NCBI GenBank assembly: GCA_001661245.1
Contig: KV454014.1
Coordinates: 1,197,989-1,261,988 of the forward strand
DNA: 64,000 bases
From: Pachysolen tannophilus NRRL Y-2460
Taxonomy: Eukaryota
Direction of reading: 5' to 3'
Positions 5,501 through 64,000 of the stretch are shown here, piece by piece. The stretch's first letter is position 1; each line of letters opens with the position of its first letter. The notes beneath the pieces are model-generated. The model ran no database searches and was not told where the DNA came from. It worked only from the letters and a program-made list of their open reading frames with translations. The position numbers and the translations under genes were made by a program.

Positions 5501-5839
5501 GCAGCTTGTTTTTTAGATTGCATAGATTTTAAAATTGAATAATTATCAAAACTTTTTGTCTTATTAAAAGGCGGCCGAGGTGGTACTGGAACCTGTGTTT
5601 GAGGAACAACAGCTGAAGCCGATTGATTCACTAACAATTTTTGCATTGAAATAGATTGAATGGAATCCGAATCCAAAGAATTCGGAGACCCATTGTCAAC
5701 AACTTCAAATTCAACAGTATAAGGTAAGAATCTGTATATTCATTCAATCTTTGTTAGTAAAATTTAATATTCACCAGTTTAATTTTGAAAATCAACATTT
5801 ATTTTTAACTACTTACAATGAAGCAACAATTAAAGTCAT
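2512..5839 (-). CDS. TPS3: Trehalose synthase complex regulatory subunit (Tps3/Tsl1); exons 5839-5817 and 5731-2512 (1080 aa)
   Basis: Glyco_transf_20 motifs (WIHDYHL, GFFLHVSFPSSEVFR, REGMNL); phosphatase DxD motif lost. Splicing restores the N-terminus MTLIVASLFLPYTVEFE. Confidence 0.88.
5732..5816 (-). other. Spliceosomal intron in TPS3 (85 nt)
   Basis: GTAAGT donor, TACTAAC at 5759-5753, CAG acceptor; splicing is in frame. Confidence 0.9.
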
Positions 5840-8625: not shown

Positions 8626-11600
8626 ATGCAGAATAACAATTGGAAAGGTCCAGATAATCAGGATAATAATCCGAATACTCAAGATAATAATAAACCTGGG
8701 ATTCAACCTCCGTTTCAGTATGTATAAATTATATATATATAAGTTGTGAAGAGTTTTACTAACAAAAATTTTTTTTTTTATTACAAAAGGCGCCATCAAA
8801 ATGGTCCTCCAATCTTACGACCTCCATCAAGTTTAGAGAATGGTAAGTTATATTCATTTGATTTTTTATTAAAACAATGAACCCCTTGATAACTAACATT
8901 TTTTTAATAATTATATTTTTTTAAAGGTCAATCATATTATTCGTTGCCATCGTTACCCGGATTAGGGTCACATAATCCATCGGGCGGTTATGGTATGCCT
9001 CCAATCAATAATCCACCAGGTATACATCAAGTAAGTTATAGAATAAAGAGAAAAAAAACTTCTTTCCTTCCTATAAATGAACTTTGTTTTTGTTTTTACT
9101 AACTACTGATTTTTTTTTTAATCTGTTCAGGATCAATCGCAGTCTACAAATTCGTTACCACCTCCACCGGTTCCTCCGCAACCACCAATGAGCAATACTA
9201 CCGGGCCAGCTCCATCACAGACAAATTCTCCTCCAAACAATCAACTGCAATTATCAGCACTGCCGGGGTCAGGATTAGCCGCCTATAGACCATTAAATGT
9301 TAAGGATGCATTATCTTATTTAGATCAAGTTAAAGTACAATTCCAAAATCAGCCAGATGTTTACAATCATTTCTTGGATGTTATGAAAGATTTCAAGAGT
9401 CAAACGTAAGTATTAACAATCCATCCATCTACCTCATTATTTTTTTTTTTATTAATTGTTTCATTTCATTTCATGGGTGATACATATATATATGTATATA
9501 TTTATTCAACTTTATTATTGGATAAATATGCACCTTAAATGAAAAGTTAAAAGAAAAAAAAAAAAAAAAAAAAAAAAAAGAGGGTAATTGTGTGTTTTTT
9601 ATTTTTTATTTTTTTTTGATTGTTTTAATACTAACTAATAATGAATTATAATTTTATTAATAGAATCGATACTCCAGGTGTTATTGATAGAGTTTCTTCT
9701 TTATTTAGAGGTCACCCTAATCTTATACAGGGGTTCAACACGTTTTTGCCTCCAGGTTACCGCATTGAATGTTCTTTAGACCCATCAGATCCAAATCCAA
9801 TAAGAGTTACCACTCCTATGGGAACTACAACTAGACCTGGTACCACTGGTGATTTTGAAAAAAGAGAATGGGGGCAACCAATTCTTCAGCCGTCACAGGA
9901 GTCTGATCAACAACAACAACAGCAACAACAAATAGCTTCACAGCAGCAACACCTGCAGTCGTATGCTCAACCACAGCCTCAACAGGTTGGTCCTCCACAT
10001 CCACTTGGAATCAATGCTCAACAACCACCAATGGGTGTACCACCTTCTAATAGTGGATCACCAGTTGAATTCAACCATGCAATTAGCTATGTCAACAAGA
10101 TAAAGACTAGGTTTGCAAATCAACCAGATATTTATAAGCATTTTTTGGAAATCTTGCAAACATATCAAAGAGAACAAAAACCAATAGGAGAAGTTTATCA
10201 ACAAGTTACTGTATTATTTCAAAATGCACCTGATTTGTTGGATGATTTCAAACAATTCTTGCCTGATACCAGTGCTAAGATTCCAGTACCACTTCCTCAA
10301 CAAGAACATTTCGTACCTCCTAGAAATGATGCAAACAATGGTAACGCTGGAAATAAAAGTATGCAATTACCACCGGTTGGTAATTTTCCACCTCCTTCTG
10401 CCGGCGGTGGTATGAATCAGCCACCAACAAAAGATCGTAAGAAGAAGGGTAGTATCACTTCCTCCAATGAAATCGCAACTTCAGATATTCGGGGACCTCC
10501 AATACAAACTTCAAAACGTGGAAGAAAAGAAAATGCTCAACGTGCTATGGAAGTTATTCAAGATCAAGAATATCAATCTAAAAATTCAACTTTATCCGAA
10601 GAAATTGGATTTTTTGATAAAGTTAAAAAGGCAATTGGAAATAAACAAACTTATAATGAATTTTTGAAAATGATCAATTTGTATTCACAGGAAATTATTG
10701 ATAAAGATACTTTAATCGAAAGAGTTGAAGGCTTCATTGGACCATATAAAGACTTATTTGATTGGTTCAAGCATTTTGTTGGATTTGAAGATACTCCAAT
10801 GAATATAGAGAATGTAACTTTTAAAAAGCATCAATTGGAATTGTCATTATGTAAGTCTTGTGGTCCTTCATATAGACTCTTACCAAAAGCAGAAACTTAT
10901 ATGCCATGCTCAGGAAGAGATGATATGTGTTGGGAAGTATTAAATGATGAATGGGTTGGACATCCAACTTGGGCCTCAGAGGATTCTGGGTTCATTGCGC
11001 ATAGAAAAAATCAATACGAGGAAATTCTTTTCAGAATTGAAGAGGAAAGACACGAATATGATTATTATATGGAAGCTAATTTAAGAACAATTCAAACTTT
11101 AGAGACCATTGCAAATAGAATTGCAAATATGACTCCAGAAGAAAAAGCTCATTTTAAATTACCAGAAGGACTTGGTCATACCTCATTAACAATTTATAAA
11201 AAAGTCATTAGAAAAATTTACGATAAGGATAGAGGTTTTGAAGTTATTGACGCATTACATGAAAACCCAGCTGTTGCTGTTCCAATTGTATTAAAAAGAT
11301 TGAAACAGAAAGATGAAGAATGGAAAAGATCACACAGGGAATGGAACAAGGTTTGGAGAGAAATGGAACAGAAAGTTTTCTTTAAAAGTTTGGATCATTT
11401 AGGATTAACTTTTAAGCAAGCTGATAAAAAGTTATTAACTACAAAACAATTAATTTCTGAAATCAGCACTATTAAAATAGAGCAAACACAAAAGAGATTA
11501 CATCCATTGACTCCAAAACCTAAAGAACAGTTGGAGTATTCATTCAAAGATTATGAAATTTTGATGGATATAGTGAAATTAGTCTTGATTTTTTTAAACC

Positions 11601-24904: not shown

Positions 24905-25054
24905 TATCAACTATGACTATATCTACCTCAAAACTAATATATATATATATATATAGATTCGTCTTTTGAAAGTTATCAATCAGTACCTTTAACAACCTCT
25001 TCTTCCTATCTTTTTTAGCGTTAAAAATTTTTTTATTTTATTTTTTTTTTTGTA

Positions 25055-25068
25055 TGAAAAATTTTTCA
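25055..25068. promoter_or_regulatory. RRPE element (palindromic TGAAAAATTTTTCA) in the GAR1 promoter
   Basis: Exact RRPE consensus ~150 bp upstream of a ribosome-biogenesis gene. Confidence 0.7.
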
Positions 25069-25192
25069 GATGATGATGACGTGAAAAACACTACTTTTAT
25101 TTTAAATTGTACACATAGTTCAATTGGGTATATATGAGAATCAATTTAGTAATAGATATAATGATTGAAGTTGATGGGTAGGAGTTTTAACG

Positions 25193-28100
25193 ATGGTTAA
25201 TCAAAAGCGAAAGAATCTGGAGAAGAATCTGGAGAAGTCGTTTCAAAATACTGATAAGTTATCTGAATATGCTCAGAAGTATTGGCTTGGTAAAAAAAAT
25301 GTTAAAAAGATTGATAATAAATTGGTTGGTGAGATATGGTCAATGATATGTTCATCAGAGAATCAAGGGGAAATTATAGATTGTTTGAACAAGTTAGAAT
25401 ATTTACCTAGATTTTTGTGGCCTTTGTTTCATGAAGATGGTACTAGAGAACATGTTAATTCTGTAATTTTTTTGTTCCCATATTCATTAGATTTGGTTGT
25501 TACCGATAAGGTAAAGTTTAAACAACTTTATTTTAGAGTCTTATCAATGTATGCAAATATGGAAAGGTTAAATTTGAAAGATAAAGAGCATTTATTAAGT
25601 TTTATGAATTGTTTGATGTTGAATTTTGGTAATCTGATAGTGAAAGAAGTTATTAGTCCTTTAGTATCTATATCTTCATGGGAATTTTTAACTTATAAAG
25701 ATAATTTATTGATATCAACTGGATTAACTAAAGTTTATGAATCGGAATTAACAATTTTTAAAAAATTAAAAGGTGAAGAAAAGGGTAATGCATATTTACA
25801 GAAATGTTGGTTTTATAATTTATTAATTGATCATATGAAATTGTTATTACAAGTGAAACACACAGATGAAGAAGATATTGTACATTATAACAAAAAAATT
25901 GTTCAATTTTTAATCAATGTATTGTCTCAATTGCCAACCAGAAAATTTATAAACACTTTGGTAAAAGAGATAAGTTACTTAGCAGCTTTAAAAAAAATTT
26001 CACCTTCACCTTCAGTTGATTATATTCTGTTATTGGAGTATTTTGTTTTTTTCCCTATAAATGATTTTGAAAGCTCAATGGTAAATAAATCATTAGATCA
26101 ATTACATTCAGAAAAAATTTCTAAACTACAAAGAGTTGCATTTGCAGAATTTAATGATTCATTATCAGATTTGGCAACAACAAATTTTGGAAATTTAGAA
26201 GGAAATTTTAAAGAATTTTTTAATAAAATTGATGATTTAAAATTGGAAGAATTTTTAAGAAAAATTAATTTACAAATTGATTTCCCATTCAAAGTTGATA
26301 GAAATTTCATGTTAAAAGCAATAGAACTTAAATATAAGAGACCAACTACTGTATACGAAATATCTGAGACCATAAAGACTTTACCTAAGGAGTCAGATTT
26401 ATATAAAATTGAGCATGATTATCCAGCTACACTGGAAGGAAATTTTTTTTTAAATATTGAAGAATTTTTATTAAGAAATTTGACAACTTTGCAAAAAGAT
26501 TTTTTTAGAAAGATTGCTCATGATATTCAAGACACCATTAATAATTTAAAGATAAAAAATGATGAATTGAATGGGTTCAAGATAACTGGGAGTGATAGAT
26601 ACACTTTAGGAATTGATCAACATATAATTATCCACGAGATCGAACCTGCAACGATAGAATCAAAATATCCATTAAAAGTAAATGCAGAAATTATCATTGA
26701 TTATTTTAAAGTTAGTCATGAATTTAGAAAAGAATGGGATAATTTATCCAAAGGTGATATAGTTTTCTTGCTACAAATTATTAGGCCTGATTCTATATCT
26801 AATTCCACTAATTCCAAATCTAAACCTTCCAATGCGTTGAAATTAATGAGATCTGCCGAAGTCTTGGAAATATTAGATGGAAATGGGAAACCATTGAGCT
26901 CATTCTCAAAAAATGATAATCGTCGTAGAAGATTATATGTTAATATAGATCCTAAACAGTTTGTCAAAGATAGTTCAAAGATTTATGAAGGATTTAGTTT
27001 CATTGTGAGAAATCGTGATAATCTGCTTAAAAATCGAATGGATACTATTAAAGAGATCATCAAGTATGACAAAATTGAATTACCAGAATGGTTTAACGAT
27101 TATTTTCTTGGTTTTGAAAATATGAACAAATGTGATTATCGTAATCAAGAAAATAGACCTTTATTTTTAAAATTTAACGAAATTTTCAATTCAGTTGATA
27201 ATTTGAAAGATGTTTTTAAAGATTATAGTCTTAAATTTGGACTATCTGAAGAGGAACCAACTAAGAAAAAAAGAAAAGTGCTGATAGGAAACAAGAAAGA
27301 AGAAGAAGAATTTTTTTCAAAAAATAATGACATTGAATTTCCAGTTGCCATTGATTTTTCATTGGAAGCTAATAAAGAACTTACTGTTTGTCCTTATATA
27401 GATATCAGTTGTGAAAGCAAGCAGGACTTGGAAACAAAATTTTCTTCAAAAGAAATTGAATTATTGATTTCAGGAATGTCAACAGGTTTAACAGTAATAG
27501 AAGAAGAAAATATATCTTTACTTATAAAAATCATTAATAGCATAATTTACAATTTCCCAGAAGAGAGAATAGTAATAGTTTGCAAAGATTCTAAAAATTT
27601 ATCAGAGATACGGAATTTGTTGAATGTTAATGAATATGATATATATTTTACTACTAATAAGAATCAATCTAGTAAGAACGATGGTGGGAAATTGACTAAT
27701 TTGTTAAAAAATGTTGATACATTAGCTATTTTTTTACAAATAGATGGAGCTCATGGTGATTCTCCTGAAACTGCTATTTTTTTCTTTAAAAATAAGATTC
27801 AACCATTATGGTCAAATTTTTTAAAAAAATTACATGAAAAAGGTGCTACAAATGAAAATTTACTTCAATTATATCCATTCAATACAAACTCAGATACAAT
27901 TATTGACCTAAAAACAAATTTTGAAAAAAACTTAATACAAATAATAAACCATTACAGAAATAAAGTGCTTTCAATTTTTAATAACTTGAACCATTACAGA
28001 GAACAATTGGTTACACATGATGCTAAAATTTTAATGAAAAATTCAAAAATTATCTTAATGACTCCACAAGAAATCTTACAAAACTACAAGCACATGGGAA

Positions 28101-28225
28101 AAACAGATAGCATAATCTTACTCCATCAACTCCATCAACTCCATAACCATGACTTGGACCTAGAAATGTTGCTCCTATCAAATCAAAATCTAAAAAGAAT
28201 AATTAAAACCATTAGAACCGTATAG
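25193..28225 (+). CDS. Aquarius/IBP160/Cwf11-like spliceosomal protein, degenerate and C-terminally truncated
   Basis: Aquarius-like blocks LEYLPRFLWP, LSQLPTRKFINTL, LQRVAF, EWDNLSKGDIVFLL, LPEWFNDYFLGF, NFPEERIVIV, GAHGDSPETA; no GxxxxGKT. Confidence 0.75.
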   Translation: MVNQKRKNLEKNLEKSFQNTDKLSEYAQKYWLGKKNVKKIDNKLVGEIWSMICSSENQGEIIDCLNKLEYLPRFLWPLFHEDGTREHVNSVIFLFPYSLDLVVTDKVKFKQLYFRVLSMYANMERLNLKDKEHLLSFMNCLMLNFGNLIVKEVISPLVSISSWEFLTYKDNLLISTGLTKVYESELTIFKKLKGEEKGNAYLQKCWFYNLLIDHMKLLLQVKHTDEEDIVHYNKKIVQFLINVLSQLPTRKFINTLVKEISYLAALKKISPSPSVDYILLLEYFVFFPINDFESSMVNKSLDQLHSEKISKLQRVAFAEFNDSLSDLATTNFGNLEGNFKEFFNKIDDLKLEEFLRKINLQIDFPFKVDRNFMLKAIELKYKRPTTVYEISETIKTLPKESDLYKIEHDYPATLEGNFFLNIEEFLLRNLTTLQKDFFRKIAHDIQDTINNLKIKNDELNGFKITGSDRYTLGIDQHIIIHEIEPATIESKYPLKVNAEIIIDYFKVSHEFRKEWDNLSKGDIVFLLQIIRPDSISNSTNSKSKPSNALKLMRSAEVLEILDGNGKPLSSFSKNDNRRRRLYVNIDPKQFVKDSSKIYEGFSFIVRNRDNLLKNRMDTIKEIIKYDKIELPEWFNDYFLGFENMNKCDYRNQENRPLFLKFNEIFNSVDNLKDVFKDYSLKFGLSEEEPTKKKRKVLIGNKKEEEEFFSKNNDIEFPVAIDFSLEANKELTVCPYIDISCESKQDLETKFSSKEIELLISGMSTGLTVIEEENISLLIKIINSIIYNFPEERIVIVCKDSKNLSEIRNLLNVNEYDIYFTTNKNQSSKNDGGKLTNLLKNVDTLAIFLQIDGAHGDSPETAIFFFKNKIQPLWSNFLKKLHEKGATNENLLQLYPFNTNSDTIIDLKTNFEKNLIQIINHYRNKVLSIFNNLNHYREQLVTHDAKILMKNSKIILMTPQEILQNYKHMGKTDSIILLHQLHQLHNHDLDLEMLLLSNQNLKRIIKTIRTV

Positions 28226-28565
28226 AAGTATAGTTTGTTTGGTCGTGTTATCACACCACAAAATTCCGTTTCTTTTAATCACATGAAAGGGCGACTGTTA
28301 AAATACAACTAAAATGAGTATTTTATATATTTACCCAACTATATATATATATATATTTATATATATATAATTATTATATATATGTATTTGATTGATAAAT
28401 TCTTGAATTAATATTGGAAAGTATTAATTGAAGATTATTTAATTTTGCTTTGATAAAATTTCAAGTGTATTTGAATAATTTTAAATTTTTTAATTTATTT
28501 AGAAATCTTAAAAAGTAATTTCATAAAGAAAAAAGAAAAAAGAAAGAAAAATATAGAAAAAGAAA

Positions 28566-30299
28566 ATGTCTCAAAAGCTGCCTTTAGAGGATATTTTAAA
28601 GATTGAAGATGAACCTATAGGTTCATGGGCAGATGATGATATTGATATTTCAGCGCTTAGCATTCCGCCTATTTCTCCGAAGAGATCGCAGCCGCTGTTG
28701 GCCGATCATTCATATGAGAACGGTAATGGCTTTAATCATTATAATAATTCTGGTGCTAATCATTATCATGGTAGTTATGGTAACAACCATAATGATTATG
28801 GACATTCGAATTATACTCATTATGGGAGCGATAATAGATCATTTCATAATGGTGGCGGTGGATCCAATAGGTTCAATAATAGTTATGGCTATAATAATGG
28901 CAATAATTATAATAATTATAATAGTAATTATAATAATAGCTATAACAATAATAATAGATATGGTTCTTCTTCACATTCAACTAATGATGGCGGTGATTTT
29001 AACAACAATAATTATTCCACTTCACCAACAAAAAGATATCAGTCAAGTGATCGTTTTAATAATGGTAGTAGATTTAACAATAGAAATCTCAATGGGTTTA
29101 ATTCTCAATTCCCTTATTTGGGTGAGACAAATTCTTCTACAGCTAAATCACTTCCTCGAGCATTACCAGAAAGTACAACGACACCTACAATCATGTCACA
29201 TTCTTCTGCTGCTTCTAAACCGAAAACAAATCCTTTTGGTAATGCAAAACCTGTTGATATTGATCCAGCTAAAATTGAACAACTTACTCGTAAACCGAAG
29301 CTGAATCCATTTGGAAGTGCTAAACCTGTTGATCAATCTAAGATAGAGCTGGAAATCAAGAAAAAATTGCAAAAATTATCTGTTAATGGAACAACTTATC
29401 AATTAGGTGATACAAAAGTTGGGGAGAAAAGTAATAATAATAACGATAATGGAAATGACGAAGAGAAAGGAAAGAATAGCCAAGAAGAACAAGAACAAGA
29501 ACAAAGTGGACCTTGGAAGAATGAAACGTTAGCTGACAAATTAGCCGGTCGATTCCGTAATAAATATTCAAATTCTACATCATCTTCTCAAAAATCGTCA
29601 CATTCACCAACGCCCACTCCTAGTAACAATAATAATAGAAAGTTGAGTTTAAATTCATCCCAGAAGCCACAAACGAAACTTATATTGAGAAGGAAAAGTT
29701 CTTCTGCCGCAACAAACTCAGATTCAAGTGCTTCTTCAAGTTGGTCTACTGCAACGATAAAGAGAAAAGGATCTTCTTCCGCCAGTACTCCTGCTACTGG
29801 TTCTGTTGCTTCATTAGCGACCGGTAGAAGTGATGATAGCAATGGCAAAGATGTTGTTAAAGAAGATGGCAATTCTGCACATTTAAAGAATGGAGCAAGC
29901 CCAGGAGAAAAAACTGGGAAAATTGTGAAAACTGGAAAAAATGAATCAGTAGAAACAGGGAAAGAACCTACCAAGAAAATCTTGTCAAGAGGAAAAGATC
30001 CAAAGCTGAAAAATTTAGAAAATGAAGAGGTTGATAACAAGAAAGAGTCTAGTGATAGTGTCAGAGGTAAAACGGCTACTATGGAAACAAAAGCAGGGAA
30101 TGGTATAACTTCTACTCCAATGACCGAAAGAAACTCAACTAGTAGTAACAGAGGAAGAAGTCGAGGAGTTAGAGGCAGAACTAGGGGAAGAGGAAGAGCA
30201 AGGGGTAAAGGAACTTTCCATAATCTGATTTATGTCAGAAAAGATAATAGTGATAATAATAATAATAATAATAAAAATAATAATAATGATAGTAAATAA
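28566..30299 (+). CDS. Psp2/eIF4B-related low-complexity RNA-binding protein with no recognisable RRM
   Basis: N-terminal SWADDDID motif, two NPFG.AKPVD repeats followed by a coiled segment, C-terminal RG repeats. Confidence 0.6.
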   Translation: MSQKLPLEDILKIEDEPIGSWADDDIDISALSIPPISPKRSQPLLADHSYENGNGFNHYNNSGANHYHGSYGNNHNDYGHSNYTHYGSDNRSFHNGGGGSNRFNNSYGYNNGNNYNNYNSNYNNSYNNNNRYGSSSHSTNDGGDFNNNNYSTSPTKRYQSSDRFNNGSRFNNRNLNGFNSQFPYLGETNSSTAKSLPRALPESTTTPTIMSHSSAASKPKTNPFGNAKPVDIDPAKIEQLTRKPKLNPFGSAKPVDQSKIELEIKKKLQKLSVNGTTYQLGDTKVGEKSNNNNDNGNDEEKGKNSQEEQEQEQSGPWKNETLADKLAGRFRNKYSNSTSSSQKSSHSPTPTPSNNNNRKLSLNSSQKPQTKLILRRKSSSAATNSDSSASSSWSTATIKRKGSSSASTPATGSVASLATGRSDDSNGKDVVKEDGNSAHLKNGASPGEKTGKIVKTGKNESVETGKEPTKKILSRGKDPKLKNLENEEVDNKKESSDSVRGKTATMETKAGNGITSTPMTERNSTSSNRGRSRGVRGRTRGRGRARGKGTFHNLIYVRKDNSDNNNNNNKNNNNDSK

Positions 30300-43819: not shown

Positions 43820-44578
43820 ATGGATTTTACAACACCAATAGGGGATTTGAGAGTTGAGAATCCTATAGTGAAGCAGCTGAGAGGGAATGATGTTAATTAT
43901 GTGGATTCTTCGCCAACTATGAATCATGTTAGGTTTAAAAATTTTCTTAAGAATAAAAATAAAAATAGATATAGTGGGAATAATAAAAATAGCGTGTTAG
44001 ATGAATTTCAAACAAAGATAACAAATAGAAATAATGATTTATATCATCCGTTGTTAAGAGATACTGATGATTCAAAAGTTTCATATACTAGTGAATGTTT
44101 TGCGAATCAAAGACCGAAAAATAGGTTTCATTCACATGGACATCAATATAATCATAATAATGGTCAAAAACAATTTAAAGAAAATATTAGAAATAAAAAA
44201 GATAACAAAATTTTGTATAATAGAGAATTTTTAAATTATAGAAATAACAAACAAGAAACAGAAAAGGCAATGAACGATATGGCGAGGAATATGAGTATTG
44301 AAGTAGATGAATATGAAAGTTTAAATACAACTATAGATGAAATTTTTGGTGGAGGTGATTTAATGTATGATCGATCGCGTAAAGGACGTGATTTTGAACT
44401 TGATCAAACAGATATGAATTATGACGATAAAGATTATGATATGGCTTTTGAAGCCGATGATGAAATGGGTAAACCCCAGTTGGATTTAGAAGAAATAAGA
44501 CAAAGAGAATTGGAAGAATATTTAAGACTGCAAGAGGAAGAGTTGGAGTATCTCACTGCTAATTTGAGTATTGGATAG
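43820..44578 (+). CDS. Hypothetical protein (basic N-terminal half, acidic/coiled C-terminus)
   Basis: 252-codon ATG-initiated ORF filling the gap between RRP40 and COQ2; no family recognised. Confidence 0.65.
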   Translation: MDFTTPIGDLRVENPIVKQLRGNDVNYVDSSPTMNHVRFKNFLKNKNKNRYSGNNKNSVLDEFQTKITNRNNDLYHPLLRDTDDSKVSYTSECFANQRPKNRFHSHGHQYNHNNGQKQFKENIRNKKDNKILYNREFLNYRNNKQETEKAMNDMARNMSIEVDEYESLNTTIDEIFGGGDLMYDRSRKGRDFELDQTDMNYDDKDYDMAFEADDEMGKPQLDLEEIRQRELEEYLRLQEEELEYLTANLSIG

Positions 44579-48623: not shown

Positions 48624-51600
48624 TTAATTTGGTTTATTCAGGTGGTAGTAGTTACCGCTATTTTCAATATCTTTGTAAATTTTCTTTAAACGTTTGTTTT
48701 CGGATCTTGTTAGGTTTTTAATCATTAAACTATTGTTCAAATTATCGTTAATCTTGATTAAATTTTTACTAAGAAACATATTGATTAAAAAAATTGGGAA
48801 ATTATTTGGGATTTTATTTAATATAATTTCAAATTTTTTAAATAATTCATCAATATTTTGTTCTTGGTGTTCGTTAAATTTAAAAATCTTGTGATTATTT
48901 AAAAAATTTTCTATTAAATTAAAATCGTTTAAACTCAAATAATGTTCAAAGACTTGTAGTAATAATTTTTCATTCAATTCGGAATCATCTTTAGTTAAAA
49001 CTCCATTTCCAGTTTCTTCTTCTTCTTCTTCTTCTACTACTACTTCTACTACTTCCTCTTCCGGTACTATTAGTTTATCTTTATTCTGTGTAAAGTTTAA
49101 TTTGTTTCTTGGATGATTATGCTCCTGGATGAAATGATCAATTTTATGATCAAAATTAACAAATTCAATTGGAATCTTAAAAGTCATAGCTAAAGTTTCT
49201 GCACTTTTAAAATCTGTTAATTGACATAGCTGATCAATACATGACTCATATGATCCTAATTTGAAAATAATCAATATTAGTAAATAGGGCAAGTTATTGT
49301 TAATTTTAAGTTTTGATTCACATGTTTTTAATACATTTTTATTTTCATTTTTATTGGTAATTATTTTTGATTCCCTCGATATAATAGATATAAAATTGCA
49401 TAAATTATTATGCAATTTAACAAATTCATTATTTTTAATTGTTTTTAAAGATTCAATCTTCCAATATTTATCAAATGTCGATTTTGGAATTTTTAAAATC
49501 CGATATTTAGATATTAATAATTCCAAACTTTCTTGTAAATTTTTATCCTGATCTAATAATTTTAACATCTTGTTCAAAATTTCAATAATTAAATCACCAA
49601 TAAATTGAATCTCACTTTTTTCAACAACTAATACTTGTAAATAACTTAATTTTAAACCTCCACTATCTTCAGATATCTTATCAAGTAAAGTTAACACTTT
49701 ATGTTCGTTAATATTACATTTCAATTGTGAAGAAGCAAACAACTTAACTGCATATTTCGGATGTTTTGTAACTAACCATTCCCCATATTTCCAAATAGAT
49801 TGTTCATCGTCAAAATTATTCACTATAAACTCAATCAAGTTTTCTAATTTTAATTCATCATTTCTTTGGAAAAAAATCTCAAAATCATCATCTTGAATTT
49901 CATTTTCTAAAAGTTTCATGAATAAATTAACTGAATTTGATGCTTGTCCCAAATGTTCATAATATTTACAAGCAACATAAAATTTCTTATTTTCAAGTAA
50001 AATGTTCACAGTCTCATCTTTCATTATTAAAACATATTCTTTAATTAAATCTGTGAAATTATTAATAGCATGTACATTAGTAAATGAATTATCAGATAAA
50101 TATTCTAAAACTAATGAAACTTCTAATGTCTTGAAAATAACATGTCCATCCTCTCCTTTGAAAATAGATCGTTTGTTCATCCATCCATTTAAAAACAATT
50201 TATAAAATTCATTAACAGCTGATTTTTTAGACTTGAGTCCTGAGTCACTGATTTCATCATTTAAAATCAGTTGAATCTTTGTTCTTACATTTCGTATTTT
50301 CTCCAGTAATGATGAAAACGTTAATAACCCACCATATATATATTTGATGTTTTTGGTGAAAATGAAAATCAAAACTCTTGGATCTAAGTTACCATCAATC
50401 CAATAATCAAATGCTCTATCAAATTGTAAATCACCAACAAGAATTAGACCAATTAGTAATGTTATAAAATCAGATTCAACCTTACCATAGTCTGTCGAGT
50501 TATCTGAAATCCTAATCTCGTCCTGTAGATCTTCAATTACTGATTCAGTGTTATTTGCATTTTTGTCAGCCAAATCAACTAATCTAACAAGCTTAGGAGT
50601 CGGAAGAAACAATTTCACTCCTTCCTTGACACCATAAAGTAAACTTGATGATGATATATTAGAAATTTTTGAGATTTTCAGGTCAAAGTCCGAAATCTTT
50701 TCCTTTAATTCGTAGTCTTTTATATCTCCATTATTCAGAAGTACAGAAAGTCTGATTAATTCAATAATTTTATCATTTGCAAAATTGAAAATATGGCTGA
50801 CACTGGACACTTTAACTTTGTCATCACACGTAATTTGCTGAGCTTGCAGTTGATCATGAATAGAATGTATAACTACCTCATTACCACTATTCAAAACTGC
50901 AATTGCGTATGGATAATCAACAATTAATGAGGACGGGTAAGAGCTCCATGGAATAGTTCCTCTACTTATATCACCATTTGTATTAACAATCATTCCCATG
51001 GATGGTTCCTCTTTTGTATTACCACACGAAAGTAAGAATTCTCTTTTACCAACAGGGAATATTAGTGGTTTTAACAGCAATTTTTTCGATGTGGAAACAT
51101 CATCATTTTCGGTTTTATTGAAAGAAGTTGATATTGGGAACAAAGGTATTTTTTGACCTCGTATCATATCAACTAAATCGTAACCAAATTGAGTTGCTGC
51201 TGCTGCGTAATTAGATCTTCTGATACCTGCTATTGAATTTGGATAATTGAGATCCTTGATTAATTTTATGGAATCTGATGCTACCCTTACCAATCTTATA
51301 CATTTTTTCGTAAGCAACGTTGCCACTATTCCATGGGTTTGATCATACTCCGCAATTTTGTTGGAGTTTCTTAAGTCTAACTTAAAAGAATCCCAATCTA
51401 AAGATATGTCATTCACGTCTTTAATCTTTCCAATATTTGCAGGTGACAATTCAGGCAACATAAAACAAGAAAGAATCGAACCGCTCAAAACCAAGGCCCT
51501 AGATATGCTAGGTAATAATACGATCTTTTTAATTTGTCTTGTCTTGGTTTCACTAAATCTTTGTCTAGATATTAACATATATCCTATTTCATCATCAATT

Positions 51601-52430
51601 TTAAAATAATGCAATAGTTCCCCAACTGAAGTTCCAATATAAATGTTTGAGTCAAATGATTCTATACTCGTCACCTGTGCATTTTGAGATTCGGGTATTT
51701 CTGAATTTTCCACTGGAATTGAATTAATCAATGAAACTAAAGAATATGGACCAGATGATATTATAGGATCATGATGTATTTCCTTCAATTTCAAGTTTTT
51801 ATTTTCATTATCCTTTGGATCCTCAACGGGATCAGTTTTCCCATCGAACTCTTTATTATCGTTTTCCGAAAAATCTTTTTGACTAGAAACACCCAGCTCA
51901 GAATTCTCAGCCGTCTCTTTACAATCTTGATTTTGAGACGTTTCATCTGTCTCTGTATTCACATCTTTCTCATCGAGGTTATTATTATTGACTTTAATTT
52001 CACCTTTTTGCTGCTTTTCTTCCTTTTCCTCTTCCATTTCCAGAACTCCTTCGAGTGCTTCCAGAGTTTCTTTGTGATTCATTTCAGGCAATAATTCTAA
52101 GTTAGAATTTGAGTTTAAATCATCAGGACTATTTTCATTTGCATTTTCCTGTATTACATCCTGCGGTACCGATTCCTTTACTTCATTATTAGACAAATCA
52201 GATGATAATGACTCTTTTGTTTCTTCAGTACAATTATCTGGCAATTTTGCCGTTTCCAGGCTTTCTTCGTTATTTGAATCAATTGATTCATTTTCCACTT
52301 GAGTATTACCTTTGCTGTTTCCACCCGCAGCATAATCTTCATTATTATCGCTATGATTATTATTCCCTGCAACATCTACTTCTCCATTTTTGCTATTTTT
52401 TCTATTCTTAGACTTTTGGCGTTTAGCCAT
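48624..52430 (-). CDS. VPS3: CORVET subunit Vps3 (CNH domain plus alpha-solenoid)
   Basis: NIYIGTSVGELLHYF, LPELSPANIGKIKDV, NGDISRGTIPW, LDPRVLI; long acidic N-terminus. Confidence 0.85.
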   Translation of the reverse strand: MAKRQKSKNRKNSKNGEVDVAGNNNHSDNNEDYAAGGNSKGNTQVENESIDSNNEESLETAKLPDNCTEETKESLSSDLSNNEVKESVPQDVIQENANENSPDDLNSNSNLELLPEMNHKETLEALEGVLEMEEEKEEKQQKGEIKVNNNNLDEKDVNTETDETSQNQDCKETAENSELGVSSQKDFSENDNKEFDGKTDPVEDPKDNENKNLKLKEIHHDPIISSGPYSLVSLINSIPVENSEIPESQNAQVTSIESFDSNIYIGTSVGELLHYFKIDDEIGYMLISRQRFSETKTRQIKKIVLLPSISRALVLSGSILSCFMLPELSPANIGKIKDVNDISLDWDSFKLDLRNSNKIAEYDQTHGIVATLLTKKCIRLVRVASDSIKLIKDLNYPNSIAGIRRSNYAAAATQFGYDLVDMIRGQKIPLFPISTSFNKTENDDVSTSKKLLLKPLIFPVGKREFLLSCGNTKEEPSMGMIVNTNGDISRGTIPWSSYPSSLIVDYPYAIAVLNSGNEVVIHSIHDQLQAQQITCDDKVKVSSVSHIFNFANDKIIELIRLSVLLNNGDIKDYELKEKISDFDLKISKISNISSSSLLYGVKEGVKLFLPTPKLVRLVDLADKNANNTESVIEDLQDEIRISDNSTDYGKVESDFITLLIGLILVGDLQFDRAFDYWIDGNLDPRVLIFIFTKNIKYIYGGLLTFSSLLEKIRNVRTKIQLILNDEISDSGLKSKKSAVNEFYKLFLNGWMNKRSIFKGEDGHVIFKTLEVSLVLEYLSDNSFTNVHAINNFTDLIKEYVLIMKDETVNILLENKKFYVACKYYEHLGQASNSVNLFMKLLENEIQDDDFEIFFQRNDELKLENLIEFIVNNFDDEQSIWKYGEWLVTKHPKYAVKLFASSQLKCNINEHKVLTLLDKISEDSGGLKLSYLQVLVVEKSEIQFIGDLIIEILNKMLKLLDQDKNLQESLELLISKYRILKIPKSTFDKYWKIESLKTIKNNEFVKLHNNLCNFISIISRESKIITNKNENKNVLKTCESKLKINNNLPYLLILIIFKLGSYESCIDQLCQLTDFKSAETLAMTFKIPIEFVNFDHKIDHFIQEHNHPRNKLNFTQNKDKLIVPEEEVVEVVVEEEEEEETGNGVLTKDDSELNEKLLLQVFEHYLSLNDFNLIENFLNNHKIFKFNEHQEQNIDELFKKFEIILNKIPNNFPIFLINMFLSKNLIKINDNLNNSLMIKNLTRSENKRLKKIYKDIENSGNYYHLNKPN

Positions 52431-52619
52431 CGTTACCTAAATAATCATATATCTCCTTCTCCTATTGAACTCAAGTATTCCTTGTTTATTATGTATCTAC
52501 ATGAACATTAAAAAGTATGCGAAATTTATTTTTTTAAATTTTTGTTAGTAAAACACATCTCTATAAAACTATCTAATTAATTACATCAATACAATTTTAA
52601 AAATTTTTTTGATGAAAGC

Positions 52620-62705: not shown

Positions 62706-64000
62706 TCAATCCATGTTTCGGTAGACATTATTATTGAATAAATCATTACCGAACAAAAGGTCTATTAGTTCAGTATCAAATAGCATGCTATTATCAAAGC
62801 TATAGTCTATGGATGCTGGTGTAATATTGACTGGTTGCTGGTCCGTTGACAGGAATTGAGAGTTGCCAATTTTATGTTCTTGATGTGGTTGTAAAGAGTG
62901 TTGCGGCAACCCGTATAGTGGCTGTTGTTGTTGTTGTTGTTGTTGTTGCTGATCACTAGCACAAGTGGTGTATTGGTGATTATTATTTTCATTGCCAGCA
63001 ATGTTATAATCAAGTTCCAGTGGGGAATGAGTAATGGTATTGGAAAAATTATTGACTGATGATACGAATGATTTATTAATCTTGCCATCTTTCTTGTTGA
63101 AATCACCAGGAATTGGAGAAGAATTCAACTTTGTTGCATTGATTAACAAATTAATATTACTAGCTTCTTTGTTATTTTGAGGATATTCATTATTTTCGTT
63201 TCTGCTATTCTTTTCATAGCTTCTAATAAGGAAATTTAGATCATTGATTAAAATATCAATTATATCACTGATTGCTTTTAAACTTCCTTTAATTTTATCA
63301 ACATTTCTCTGCTTCATAATATTAATCAAATTAACCGATTCTAACAAAGTATTAAAATTTACCTGATATTTAGTGTTTATGAAATCAACATCCACACTTT
63401 TACTATTTGTTAATAATAAAATATAAGAAACCACTAAGACCATTGTAGCATGATATCCAATGAAAAGATCATTACATAAAGTACCATTGAAAAATTGCAT
63501 TTGATCTTCAAATGCTAGAATTTTCGCAATTTCAATAGAAGAGTTCATACATTGACAAATGAAATCTAATAATGGATCATCATTTTTCAAAATTAAATTA
63601 GAATGAGTGATTAAATATAATAAAAATGGTAATGATAGTGAAATATAGTAATAATGATATTGTAATAATAATGTTAATTTCAATTTACTTACTGGCTCTA
63701 ATTTATAATTTTTCAAATCTTGATCTAAATTGACATACCAGTTGTAAAATTTTCTCTTGATTGTTAAAACTTTTTCCATGTTTGTTAATGACAACAACTC
63801 ATTATTCAAATATAAAGTTTTTCTATATTCTAATAATTCAAACAGCAATTTGCTTAATTCACAATATTGAATATAATATCTTCTGTGCACCGATAATTTT
63901 TCTTCATCAGAATATTCTTCAATTTTCACTTTGTTTGATGTATTGTAACCAATAATACTTGGATATTCAACATTAATATCTTCAATTTGGATACAAGAAG
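62706..64000 (-). CDS. C-terminal part of a fungal-specific (Zn2Cys6-type MHR) transcription factor; 5' end outside the window
   Basis: Frame open to the window edge (SCIQIEDINVEYP); helical MHR-like region, polyQ, acidic-hydrophobic C-terminal tail. Confidence 0.7.
   Translation of the reverse strand, partial: SCIQIEDINVEYPSIIGYNTSNKVKIEEYSDEEKLSVHRRYYIQYCELSKLLFELLEYRKTLYLNNELLSLTNMEKVLTIKRKFYNWYVNLDQDLKNYKLEPVSKLKLTLLLQYHYYYISLSLPFLLYLITHSNLILKNDDPLLDFICQCMNSSIEIAKILAFEDQMQFFNGTLCNDLFIGYHATMVLVVSYILLLTNSKSVDVDFINTKYQVNFNTLLESVNLINIMKQRNVDKIKGSLKAISDIIDILINDLNFLIRSYEKNSRNENNEYPQNNKEASNINLLINATKLNSSPIPGDFNKKDGKINKSFVSSVNNFSNTITHSPLELDYNIAGNENNNHQYTTCASDQQQQQQQQQQPLYGLPQHSLQPHQEHKIGNSQFLSTDQQPVNITPASIDYSFDNSMLFDTELIDLLFGNDLFNNNVYRNMD

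What the first reader, a model, noticed from the sequence alone, without database searches (positions are those of the whole stretch)
25193..28225. Aquarius-like helicase with eroded Walker A motif and missing second RecA domain
Seen: several Aquarius-family blocks are present. Where Aquarius has GLT..VGPPGTGKT, this protein reads GMSTGLTVIEEENISLL (~27473-27520). The ORF stops at 'NLKRII', about where motif III (LKR..GDH) would begin. Established: S. cerevisiae lacks Aquarius, which in humans drives ATP-dependent branch-site remodelling during spliceosome activation. Inference: a catalytically dead scaffold retained in an intron-richer yeast, possibly an intermediate in loss of the intron-binding complex. 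The intact 1010-codon frame in AT-rich DNA argues against a pseudogene.
Basis: partly seen in the sequence, partly recalled or inferred. Interest (0 to 1): 0.7.

Follow-up and report, generated by a model that had tools for sequence, protein, structure and literature searches.

The report
Truncated, ATPase-dead Aquarius splicing factor
A budding yeast still carries the gene for the spliceosome helicase Aquarius, but as a shortened protein without ATP-binding motifs or a second motor domain, so it can at most be a scaffold and looks like a stage in the loss of this factor in yeasts.

Summary
Window 25193-28225 (+) is an uninterrupted 1010-codon ORF. It matches Aquarius_N_1st (E 3.6e-48) and Aquarius_N_2nd (E 2e-24) but not AAA_11 or AAA_12. 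Its predicted structure superposes on human Aquarius residues 19-1098 of 1485 (Z 37.4).

In alignment the P-loop GPPGTGKT is replaced by a 4-residue gap plus E-E-N-I. The Walker B acidic pair is H-Q, inside a 9-bp tandem repeat. The protein ends 6 residues after 'NLKRII', where relatives continue 'LKRxxLIGDxxQ'. About 300-390 residues are missing: the end of RecA1 and all of RecA2. Nothing in the 64-kb window encodes them, and the next gene starts 340 bp downstream.

The retained part is conserved about as well as in full-length relatives, so I read it as a kept, non-enzymatic Aquarius derivative, probably a spliceosome scaffold. That function is inferred, not shown.

Eroded ATPase motifs are not unique to it: 29 of 105 scorable homologues lack both canonical motifs, including Cyberlindnera, Candida arabinofermentans, Kuraishia, Pneumocystis and Saitoella. 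S. pombe Cwf11 reads GPTRCGKH at motif I. Loss of RecA2 is the new feature.

The database copy reads CTG as Ala, pointing to a CUG-Ala (Pachysolen-type) yeast. Expression, partner binding and the rest of the genome could not be checked.

The parts
25193..28225 (+). Whole ORF, 1010 codons plus TAG: truncated Aquarius (AQR/IBP160/Cwf11) orthologue
25259..26323 (+). N-terminal armadillo-like helical domain (residues 23-377), Pfam Aquarius_N_1st
   Evidence: E 3.6e-48, 165 bits. Model pLDDT is mostly 80-94.
26576..26989 (+). Beta-barrel domain (residues 462-599), Pfam Aquarius_N_2nd
   Evidence: E 2e-24, 86.6 bits. Strands E454-606 in the model.
27242..27433 (+). Low-confidence linker (residues 684-747) where relatives carry the Aquarius insert domain (Aquarius_N_3rd). 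Contains PTKKKRKV, which resembles a classical nuclear localisation signal (resemblance recalled, not tested).
   Evidence: pLDDT below 50 over 684-720 and 724-747. PF21144 was not detected in this protein or in 9 of 9 crown-clade relatives scanned.
27443..28210 (+). Remnant of the first RecA-like domain with its helical insertions (residues 751-1006)
   Evidence: Alignment. Model strands E765-769, E792-797, E817-819, E953-956, E972-978 and E1002-1006. The model aligns to human AQR up to residue 1098.
27485..27523 (+). Site of motif I (Walker A): GLTVIE-EENISLL. Four residues are deleted; Lys is replaced by Asn773 and Thr by Ile774.
28112..28144 (+). Site of motif II (Walker B): IILLHQLHQLH. 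The acidic pair is replaced by His978-Gln979. It overlaps a 9-bp tandem repeat, ACTCCATCA x2.8 (28120-28144).
28187..28225 (+). Stump of motif III (NLKRII), then a 6-residue tail KTIRTV and the TAG stop. This is the point of truncation.
28226..28565 (.). A+T-rich 340-bp spacer before the next gene, with a (TA)24 run at 28340-28387. It holds no trace of Aquarius coding sequence.

Best explanation
This is a real, intact gene for a shortened orthologue of the spliceosomal SF1 helicase Aquarius in a CUG-Ala-clade budding yeast.

Shown from sequence: the protein keeps the armadillo-like N-terminal domain, the stalk and beta-barrel, and the shell of RecA1 with its helical insertions. It has lost the P-loop, the Walker B acidic pair, motif III onward and the whole of RecA2. 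It therefore cannot bind and hydrolyse ATP as Aquarius does, and it cannot clamp RNA between two RecA domains.

Inferred: it is kept as a non-enzymatic structural subunit that still docks on the Syf1-Isy1 arm of the NineTeen complex, as Aquarius/Cwf11 does in solved spliceosomes. Catalytic activation would then be driven by Prp2 alone, as in S. cerevisiae. The ATPase probably became dispensable first, since motif erosion is shared with many yeast relatives. The useless RecA2 was then deleted in this lineage. Losing the RNA clamp would also avoid the dominant-negative stall that an ATPase-dead full-length Aquarius causes in human extract.
For: Identity:
- Pfam Aquarius_N_1st and Aquarius_N_2nd.
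- phmmer against PDB: fungal Aquarius 9l5r_Y E 7.4e-65, human AQR E 7e-46, Cwf11 E 7.8e-13.
- AF2 model with pLDDT 77.4 and pTM 0.70.
- Foldseek ranks 1-16 are all Aquarius/Cwf11 chains with TMq 0.72-0.83; the next-best rows score TMq <=0.28.
- VIA-align: 4pj3 Z 37.4, rmsd 3.6 A, 935 residues aligned, model 19-1010 on AQR 19-1098. Ranks 1-15 are all Aquarius/Cwf11 chains and the first non-Aquarius row has Z 16.5.
- On a 41-row tree it sits inside a starred (99) 18-row clade of budding-yeast Aquarius homologues.

Catalytic death: motif I, II and III states. No AAA_11 or AAA_12 was found, whereas AAA_12 is found in 12 of 14 relatives scanned.

Truncation is not a local sequencing error:
- tblastn of 12 homologue C-termini against the window found nothing better than E 0.87.
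- The next ORF starts 340 bp downstream and has no Pfam family.
- There is no TACTAAC branch-site motif in 25000-28700.

Retention:
- Open frame, P = 4e-44.
- Terminal branch 1.02 against 0.43-1.75 for the other 17 rows of its clade.
- It keeps 30 of 49 family-conserved N-terminal columns (5 crown relatives keep 23-31) and 28 of 77 in the RecA1 part (crown relatives keep 29-39).
- Its Pfam scores for N_1st (165 bits) and N_2nd (86.6 bits) exceed those of 9 of 9 crown-clade relatives.

Context from papers:
- Aquarius/Cwf11 binds one arm of Syf1/Cwf3 (PMC4830896, passage).
- K829A Aquarius is dominant negative (PMC10208982, passages).
- S. pombe cwf11-delta is a viable splicing mutant with negative genetic interactions (PMC4210515, passage).
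Against: - No expression evidence: no RNA run is listed and the read-laying run failed.
- No close relative exists in the libraries (best is 32% identity). So there is no dN/dS, and the truncation cannot be dated.
- The whole genome is not held, so a separate RecA2 gene and the presence of Syf1, Isy1 and other partners were not checked.
- Binding to any partner was not tested.
- Conservation was judged only against equally fast-evolving relatives.
- The tree is a quick LG+G4 search with 11 of 38 forks open. Composition warnings include this row, and its place within the clade is unresolved.
- The RecA1 remnant is modelled with only middling confidence (pLDDT 44-90 per block).
- Two in-frame tandem repeats (12 bp and 9 bp) show some slack in the sequence.
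Confidence: 0.6

Rival explanations
1. It is a relic on its way out. The ATPase died long ago, RecA2 was deleted recently, and the remaining ORF has simply not yet collected a stop. It has no function.
For: Homologues show a graded decay and S. cerevisiae has lost the gene altogether. In-frame tandem repeats sit at 25211-25237 and at the Walker B site. No expression data are available. The truncation cannot be dated.
Against: - 1010 codons remain open in 27% G+C DNA (P = 4e-44).
- Erosion of motifs I and II needed many substitutions plus a 12-nt deletion, yet the frame stayed open throughout.
- N-terminal Pfam scores are higher than in 9 of 9 crown-clade relatives.
- The terminal branch is not longer than those of its peers.
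Confidence: 0.2
2. It is an artefact or a split gene. A misassembly or deletion in this assembly removed the 3' third, or RecA2 is encoded elsewhere and the two products work together.
For: The whole genome could not be searched. The word share of 0.99 in the runs does not exclude a single local difference.
Against: - The P-loop and Walker B are lost inside a continuous, well-aligned frame, so no exon or second gene can restore ATPase activity.
- The sequence after the stop looks like ordinary A+T-rich yeast intergenic DNA with a (TA)n run (my reading of the sequence), followed by an unrelated gene.
- Runs from two studies hold 0.99 of the sampled words of 25000-28700, though one of them may be the source of this DNA.
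- The window holds no Aquarius C-terminus.
Confidence: 0.07
3. The protein has been kept for a job outside splicing. For example, its ARM, barrel and RecA1 surfaces may serve as a protein-binding platform in another nuclear process.
For: Aquarius has reported roles beyond splicing catalysis: nuclear RNAi in C. elegans (PMC5554785, abstract seen in the search listing) and intron-encoded snoRNP assembly (Hirose et al. 2006, seen only as a reference title). The catalytic constraint is gone.
Against: Nothing in the sequence points to a new partner. The parts best conserved are those shared with spliceosome-bound Aquarius, and the overall architecture superposes on spliceosomal structures.
Confidence: 0.1

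Closest known systems
Human Aquarius (AQR / IBP160), PDB 4pj3 and spliceosome entries
   Same: Same domain order and fold over AQR residues 19-1098: ARM domain, stalk, beta-barrel, and RecA1 with insertions. VIA-align gives Z 37.4, rmsd 3.6 A, 935 residues aligned and 22% identity; phmmer gives E 7e-46.
   Different: About 387 C-terminal residues of AQR have no counterpart, namely the end of RecA1 and all of RecA2. The P-loop (K829 in human; PMC10208982) and Walker B are gone. The insert domain (Aquarius_N_3rd) is undetectable. Human AQR is an active ATPase needed for catalytic activation and, per PMC13736545 (abstract read), for spliceosome termination.
S. pombe Cwf11 (PDB 3jb9_X, 9esh_N)
   Same: A yeast Aquarius orthologue resident in the spliceosome. 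Its motif I is already non-canonical (GPTRCGKH in the alignment). The model aligns to Cwf11 residues 1-1012 with Z 37.6. The deletion mutant is viable (PMC4210515).
   Different: Cwf11 is 1284 residues long and keeps the region beyond residue 1012. Its Lys in motif I is kept. I did not examine its motif II or later motifs.
Motif-eroded but full-length Aquarius homologues of other budding yeasts (Candida arabinofermentans P0009, Kuraishia capsulata P0068, Wickerhamomyces ciferrii P0057, Cyberlindnera fabianii and C. jadinii P0026 and P0054)
   Same: They fall in the same starred clade on the tree. Motifs I and II are non-canonical, evolution is fast, and the insert domain is undetectable.
   Different: All keep a RecA2-like part. 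AAA_12 is detected in 4 of these 5, but not in P0057, where motif V and VI columns are still aligned. Most keep the motif I lysine. They are 1126-1197 residues long.
Candidozyma auris B9J08_002475
   Same: Reported as a lineage-restricted protein that resembles the Aquarius family only by structure, with less than 15% identity (PMC13194674, passage read). It is another strongly decayed budding-yeast Aquarius.
   Different: I did not see its sequence or domain content. The window protein is still recognisable by sequence (E 1e-47 range).

Membership tests
Aquarius / IBP160 / Cwf11 orthologous group (by descent) | N-terminal armadillo-like domain (Pfam Aquarius_N_1st) | tested here: met
   E 3.6e-48, 165 bits, residues 23-377 on profile positions 2-385 of 393
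Aquarius / IBP160 / Cwf11 orthologous group (by descent) | Beta-barrel domain (Pfam Aquarius_N_2nd) | tested here: met
   E 2e-24, 86.6 bits, residues 462-599
Aquarius / IBP160 / Cwf11 orthologous group (by descent) | Insert domain (Pfam Aquarius_N_3rd) | tested here: not met
   No hit at E<=1. The region 684-747 is modelled at pLDDT below 50. It is also absent in 9 of 9 crown-clade relatives scanned.
Aquarius / IBP160 / Cwf11 orthologous group (by descent) | Overall fold and domain order like solved Aquarius | tested here: met
   Foldseek ranks 1-16 are all Aquarius/Cwf11 chains, TMq 0.72-0.83. VIA-align Z 27.8-37.6 over model residues 19-1010.
Aquarius / IBP160 / Cwf11 orthologous group (by descent) | Groups with Aquarius homologues of related fungi on a tree | tested here: met
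   Inside starred sets of 18 and 19 rows of budding-yeast homologues. Its position within them is unresolved.
Aquarius / IBP160 / Cwf11 orthologous group (by descent) | Sits in the spliceosome bound to Syf1 and Isy1 (intron-binding complex) | not testable with these tools
   No genome of this organism is held, so no partner sequences were available. No proteomics data.
Active SF1 (Upf1-like) RNA helicase | Walker A / motif I, GxxxxGK[ST] | tested here: not met
   4-residue deletion; Asn773 at the Lys position and Ile774 at the Thr position
Active SF1 (Upf1-like) RNA helicase | Walker B / motif II acidic pair | tested here: not met
   His978-Gln979 where 13 canonical members have E-E
Active SF1 (Upf1-like) RNA helicase | Second RecA-like domain with motifs IV-VI (Pfam AAA_12) | tested here: not met
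   The protein ends at motif III. It keeps 2 of 83 conserved columns beyond its end. No AAA_12 hit. Nothing downstream.
Pseudogene | Frame disrupted by stops or frameshifts relative to homologues | tested here: not met
   One open frame of 1010 codons aligns collinearly with homologues up to motif III. The premature end itself is compatible with either reading.

The most novel reading that the evidence does not exclude
Yeasts preserve a stepwise dismantling of a spliceosomal helicase.

The stages seen here are:
- intact Aquarius (Lipomyces, Dipodascopsis, Saccharomycopsis, Babjeviella);
- full-length pseudo-helicase with dead motifs, arising at least 5 times on a 41-row tree (fission-yeast relatives, Phaffomycetales, Pichiales);
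- this RecA2-less form;
- forms recognisable only by structure (C. auris);
- complete absence (S. cerevisiae).

If the truncated protein is a working spliceosome subunit, then the conserved core function of Aquarius in these fungi is architectural rather than enzymatic. Two-helicase catalytic activation would then not be universal among Aquarius-bearing organisms, possibly not even in S. pombe.
Probability: 0.35. Interest if true: 0.7.

Novelty: new variant of a known kind. Interest (0 to 1): 0.55.

Why it matters
Aquarius is the only SF1 helicase of the spliceosome. [quoted passage not shown]

A naturally RecA2-less, P-loop-less orthologue, together with the many motif-eroded yeast orthologues found here, separates the protein's structural role from its motor role in nature. 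It offers a simple genetic system in which to ask what Aquarius does when it cannot burn ATP. It also warns against equating 'has an Aquarius gene' with 'has Aquarius helicase activity' in comparative surveys of spliceosome complexity.

Tried and rejected
- Whole-genome search: no genome is held for this window. A stand-alone RecA2 gene and the partners Syf1 and Isy1 could not be sought.
There is therefore no read-level check of the stop codon and no expression data.
- Word-indexed protein searches:
  - P0001 alone found only itself among 7998 scored candidates.
  - A 9-sequence profile found 56 hits. Of the 55 that were not the window's own protein, every named one was a filamentous ascomycete or an animal, and the best identity to the query was 26%, so there was no close relative.
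  - The C-terminus of P0003 searched among shorter proteins gave 588 hits. The 120 listed are fragments of canonical Aquarius genes. None of the named rows listed was from a CUG-Ala yeast, which is uninformative about a split gene.
- tblastn of 12 homologue C-termini against the window gave only chance hits, E 0.87-9.8.
- TACTAAC: 9 matches in the window against 6.4 expected, none in 25000-28700.
- Earlier findings of this scan: nothing by place, sequence or words.
- Papers: searches found no paper describing ATPase-dead or truncated Aquarius orthologues in yeasts, apart from the C. auris remark in PMC13194674. Subscription papers, such as De et al. 2015, are not in the library and were not read.
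- TOM13 Pfam hit (E 0.099, below its cut-off): dismissed as chance.
- Considered and rejected: that the low-complexity ORF at 28566-30299 is a displaced part of Aquarius. It has its own ATG, no Pfam family and no tblastn similarity.
Full report
**What is there**

Window 25193-28225 (+) is one open frame of 1010 codons ending in TAG. The region is 24-29% G+C. A frame this long is not chance:
- At the ORF's own base composition, a stop is expected at 9.4% of codons, so the probability of none in 1010 is 4e-44.
- The five other frames of the same stretch hold 39-141 stops.
- The longest open run in 1000 shuffles was 106 codons.

The copy of this protein in the protein collection (P0002) differs from a standard-code translation only at the 7 CTG codons, which it reads as Ala. 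In the 30-sequence alignment, only 1 of those 7 positions falls in a column where Leu is the commonest residue. So the organism appears to use NCBI table 26, the CUG-Ala code of the Pachysolen clade (order Alaninales; for the taxonomy). That the code marks this clade is recalled knowledge. The neighbouring genes are ordinary yeast housekeeping genes, including a polo kinase, Gar1, topoisomerase I, Sin3, Rrp40 and a NIPA transporter.

**Identity**

- Pfam finds Aquarius_N_1st (residues 23-377, E 3.6e-48) and Aquarius_N_2nd (462-599, E 2e-24). No helicase family appears even at E<=1.
- Against PDB sequences, the best hits are the Aquarius chains of a thermophilic fungus (9l5r_Y, E 7.4e-65), human (E 7e-46), C. 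elegans and Chlamydomonas, and S. pombe Cwf11 (E 7.8e-13).
- An exhaustive HMMER search of 1.84 billion representatives gave 435 hits at E<=1e-3. Apart from the protein itself, the nearest is only 32% identical (P0003, Saccharomycopsis crataegensis, 1384 aa).
- An AlphaFold2 model built on a 30-sequence alignment has mean pLDDT 77.4 and pTM 0.70.
- Foldseek ranks 1-16 are all Aquarius/Cwf11 chains with TMq 0.72-0.83. The next rows (senataxin, ZNFX1, Upf1) score TMq <=0.28.
- VIA-align puts model residues 19-1010 on human AQR 19-1098 (4pj3: Z 37.4, rmsd 3.6 A, 935 aligned) and on Cwf11 1-1012 (Z 37.6). The first non-Aquarius row has Z 16.5.

**The catalytic parts**

The MAFFT alignments (column readout) show the following.
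- Motif I: relatives read GLTxIxGPPGTGKTDVAxQI. This protein reads GLTVIE----EENISLLIKI. Four residues are deleted, Asn773 stands at the Walker A lysine position and Ile774 at the threonine position.
- Motif II: relatives read xxxEEAxQx. This protein reads ILLHQLHQL (His978-Gln979). The DNA here is a perfect 9-bp tandem repeat, ACTCCATCA x2.8, at 28120-28144.
- Motif III: relatives read LKRxxLIGDxxQ. This protein reads NLKRII, then KTIRTV and stop.
- Beyond that point, 13 canonical members share 83 conserved columns. The window protein fills 2 of them.
- About 300 residues present in yeast relatives, and 387 in human AQR, are missing: the end of RecA1 and all of RecA2 with motifs IV-VI.

**Could the missing part be nearby?**

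No.
- After the stop comes a 340-bp A+T-rich spacer with a (TA)24 run. A separate ATG-initiated ORF (28566-30299) follows; it is low in complexity and has no Pfam family.
- tblastn of the C-terminal parts of 12 homologues against all 64 kb gave only chance hits, the best at E 0.87.
- No TACTAAC branch-site motif lies between 25000 and 28700.
- No exon could restore the P-loop or Walker B in any case, because both are lost within a continuous, collinear frame.

What I could not do: search the rest of the genome (none is held), or look at reads (the call failed). Runs from two studies hold 0.99 of the sampled words of 25000-28700, and one of them may be the source of this DNA. That share does not exclude a single-base difference, and no RNA run was listed.

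**Is it kept or decaying?**

No close relative exists for dN/dS, so the case is comparative.

- Tree. On a 41-row maximum-likelihood tree, the protein falls in a starred 18-row clade with Babjeviella, Kuraishia, Candida arabinofermentans, Wickerhamomyces and Cyberlindnera. Its terminal branch is 1.02, and the other 17 rows of that clade span 0.43-1.75. The tree is a quick LG+G4 search on 1280 columns. 20 of 38 inner branches are starred and 11 are open, and composition warnings include this row.
- Conserved columns. Taking columns at least 85% identical among 13 canonical members, the protein keeps 30 of 49 in the N-terminal 750 residues, against 23-31 for five crown-clade relatives. It keeps 28 of 77 in the RecA1 part, against 29-39.
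- Pfam scores. Its scores for the two N-terminal domains (165 and 86.6 bits) exceed those of all 9 crown-clade relatives scanned. Their N_1st scores are 22.9-161.9 bits. Their N_2nd scores are at most 37 bits, or undetected in 5 of 9.

So the non-catalytic body is at least as well preserved as in relatives that still have RecA2, while the catalytic parts are the most reduced of all. That pattern, together with the long open frame maintained through enough time to erase two motifs, fits selection on a non-enzymatic function better than a drifting relic. It is an inference, and the relic reading keeps about a fifth of my odds.

**The wider pattern**

Erosion of the ATPase motifs is common among Aquarius homologues.
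- Of the 150 best representatives, 105 could be scored at both motifs I and II. Of those, 29 are non-canonical at both, and 22 of the 29 still fill the motif V columns.
- Named examples:
  - Candida arabinofermentans: GPINSGKQ / IIFDASHV.
  - Kuraishia capsulata: GLPGTGKN.
  - Wickerhamomyces ciferrii: GPSGSGKK.
  - Cyberlindnera fabianii and C. jadinii.
  - Pneumocystis jirovecii: GAPGTGRT.
  - Saitoella complicata: CPPGTGDA.
- S. pombe Cwf11 reads GPTRCGKH at motif I.
- Lipomyces, Dipodascopsis, Saccharomycopsis and Babjeviella keep canonical motifs.
- On the 41-row tree, 25 rows are eroded at motif I and/or II, and at least 5 changes of state are needed. The motif columns themselves were among the 1280 columns used.
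- Among rows that end before motif III, the window protein and P0139 (728 aa, no motif III columns filled, possibly a fragment) are the only two with an eroded motif I. The other 13 such rows have a canonical or cut-off P-loop and lengths of 465-1391 aa, and look like cut gene models.

The loss of RecA2 is thus the feature that sets this protein apart.

**How it probably works**

Established from papers:
- Human Aquarius enters the spliceosome in the pentameric intron-binding complex with SYF1, ISY1, CCDC16 and PPIE.
- A P-loop mutant (K829A) is dominant negative and stalls the spliceosome before branching.
- S. cerevisiae lacks Aquarius and activates with Prp2 alone (PMC10208982, passages).
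- In the S. pombe structure, Aquarius/Cwf11 binds one arm of Syf1 (PMC4830896, passage).
- cwf11-delta is viable and shows negative genetic interactions with other splicing mutants (PMC4210515, passage).
- Human AQR also acts in spliceosome termination (PMC13736545, abstract and passages).

Inferred for this protein: it retains the docking body (ARM, stalk, barrel, RecA1 shell) and so probably still sits on the Syf1-Isy1 arm as a static subunit. Lacking the cleft between two RecA domains, it neither translocates on nor clamps the intron, which would also spare the cell the stall seen with K829A. The sequence PTKKKRKV in the disordered linker resembles a classical nuclear localisation signal. 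That resemblance is recalled and was not tested.

**Novelty**

Massive loss of spliceosomal proteins in Saccharomycotina is known (bioRxiv 10.1101/2021.03.19.436190, passages). One paper notes a C. auris protein that resembles Aquarius only by structure (PMC13194674). My eight searches found no description of ATPase-dead or RecA2-less Aquarius orthologues. Subscription papers, notably De et al. 2015, were not readable. I file this as a new variant of a known kind.

Noticed in passing
window 25193-28225, CTG codons at residues 9, 13, 148, 279, 414, 611, 697: The database copy of the protein reads all 7 CTG codons as Ala (NCBI table 26). In homologues, only 1 of the 7 positions is mainly Leu. 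The window therefore comes from a CUG-Ala-clade yeast, and all ORFs here should be translated with table 26.
   Followed up: partly
window 25211-25237 and 28120-28144: There are two perfect in-frame tandem repeats inside the gene. One is 12 bp x2.2 (KNLEKNLEK) near the N-terminus. The other is 9 bp x2.8 (LHQLHQLH), exactly where Walker B would be.
   Followed up: partly
window 28566-30299 (+): The downstream ORF is 577 aa, rich in Asn, Ser and Gly, with two copies of an NPFG[NS]AKPVD motif and an Arg-Gly-rich C-terminus. It has no Pfam family at E<=0.001.
   Followed up: no
window 9629-9635 (+), 5753-5759 (-), 52544-52550 (-): TACTAAC branch-site motifs lie just upstream of the ATG-delimited ORFs at 9641 (Sin3-like), 5646 (trehalose-phosphate synthase/phosphatase-like) and 52430. 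The Sin3-like ORF appears to start in the middle of what looks like its first PAH domain (judged by eye from the translation, not from a call). These genes probably have a 5' intron and an unlisted first exon.
   Followed up: no
window 48624-52430 (-), 43820-44578 (+), 62706-63779 (-): Three further ORFs (1268, 252 and 357 aa) have no Pfam family at E<=1e-5.
   Followed up: no
proteins P0008, P0015, P0021, P0022, P0028, P0050, P0054, P0057 (homologues, not in the window): One yeast clade (Wickerhamomyces, Cyberlindnera and unnamed relatives) shares a conserved altered P-loop, GxxxxGK[KR], and a Walker B of the form x-E-A-[SG]-Q-L. The first acidic residue is lost and the second is kept. Conservation of the altered motifs hints at a retained nucleotide-related or structural role rather than free decay.
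   Followed up: partly
protein P0096 (1178 aa, unnamed source): This is another strongly decayed homologue in the same unresolved part of the tree. Pfam finds only Aquarius_N_1st, motif I reads APPNS-DG, and no AAA_11 or AAA_12 is detected. Its organism is unknown. It could be a relative that dates the decay.
   Followed up: no
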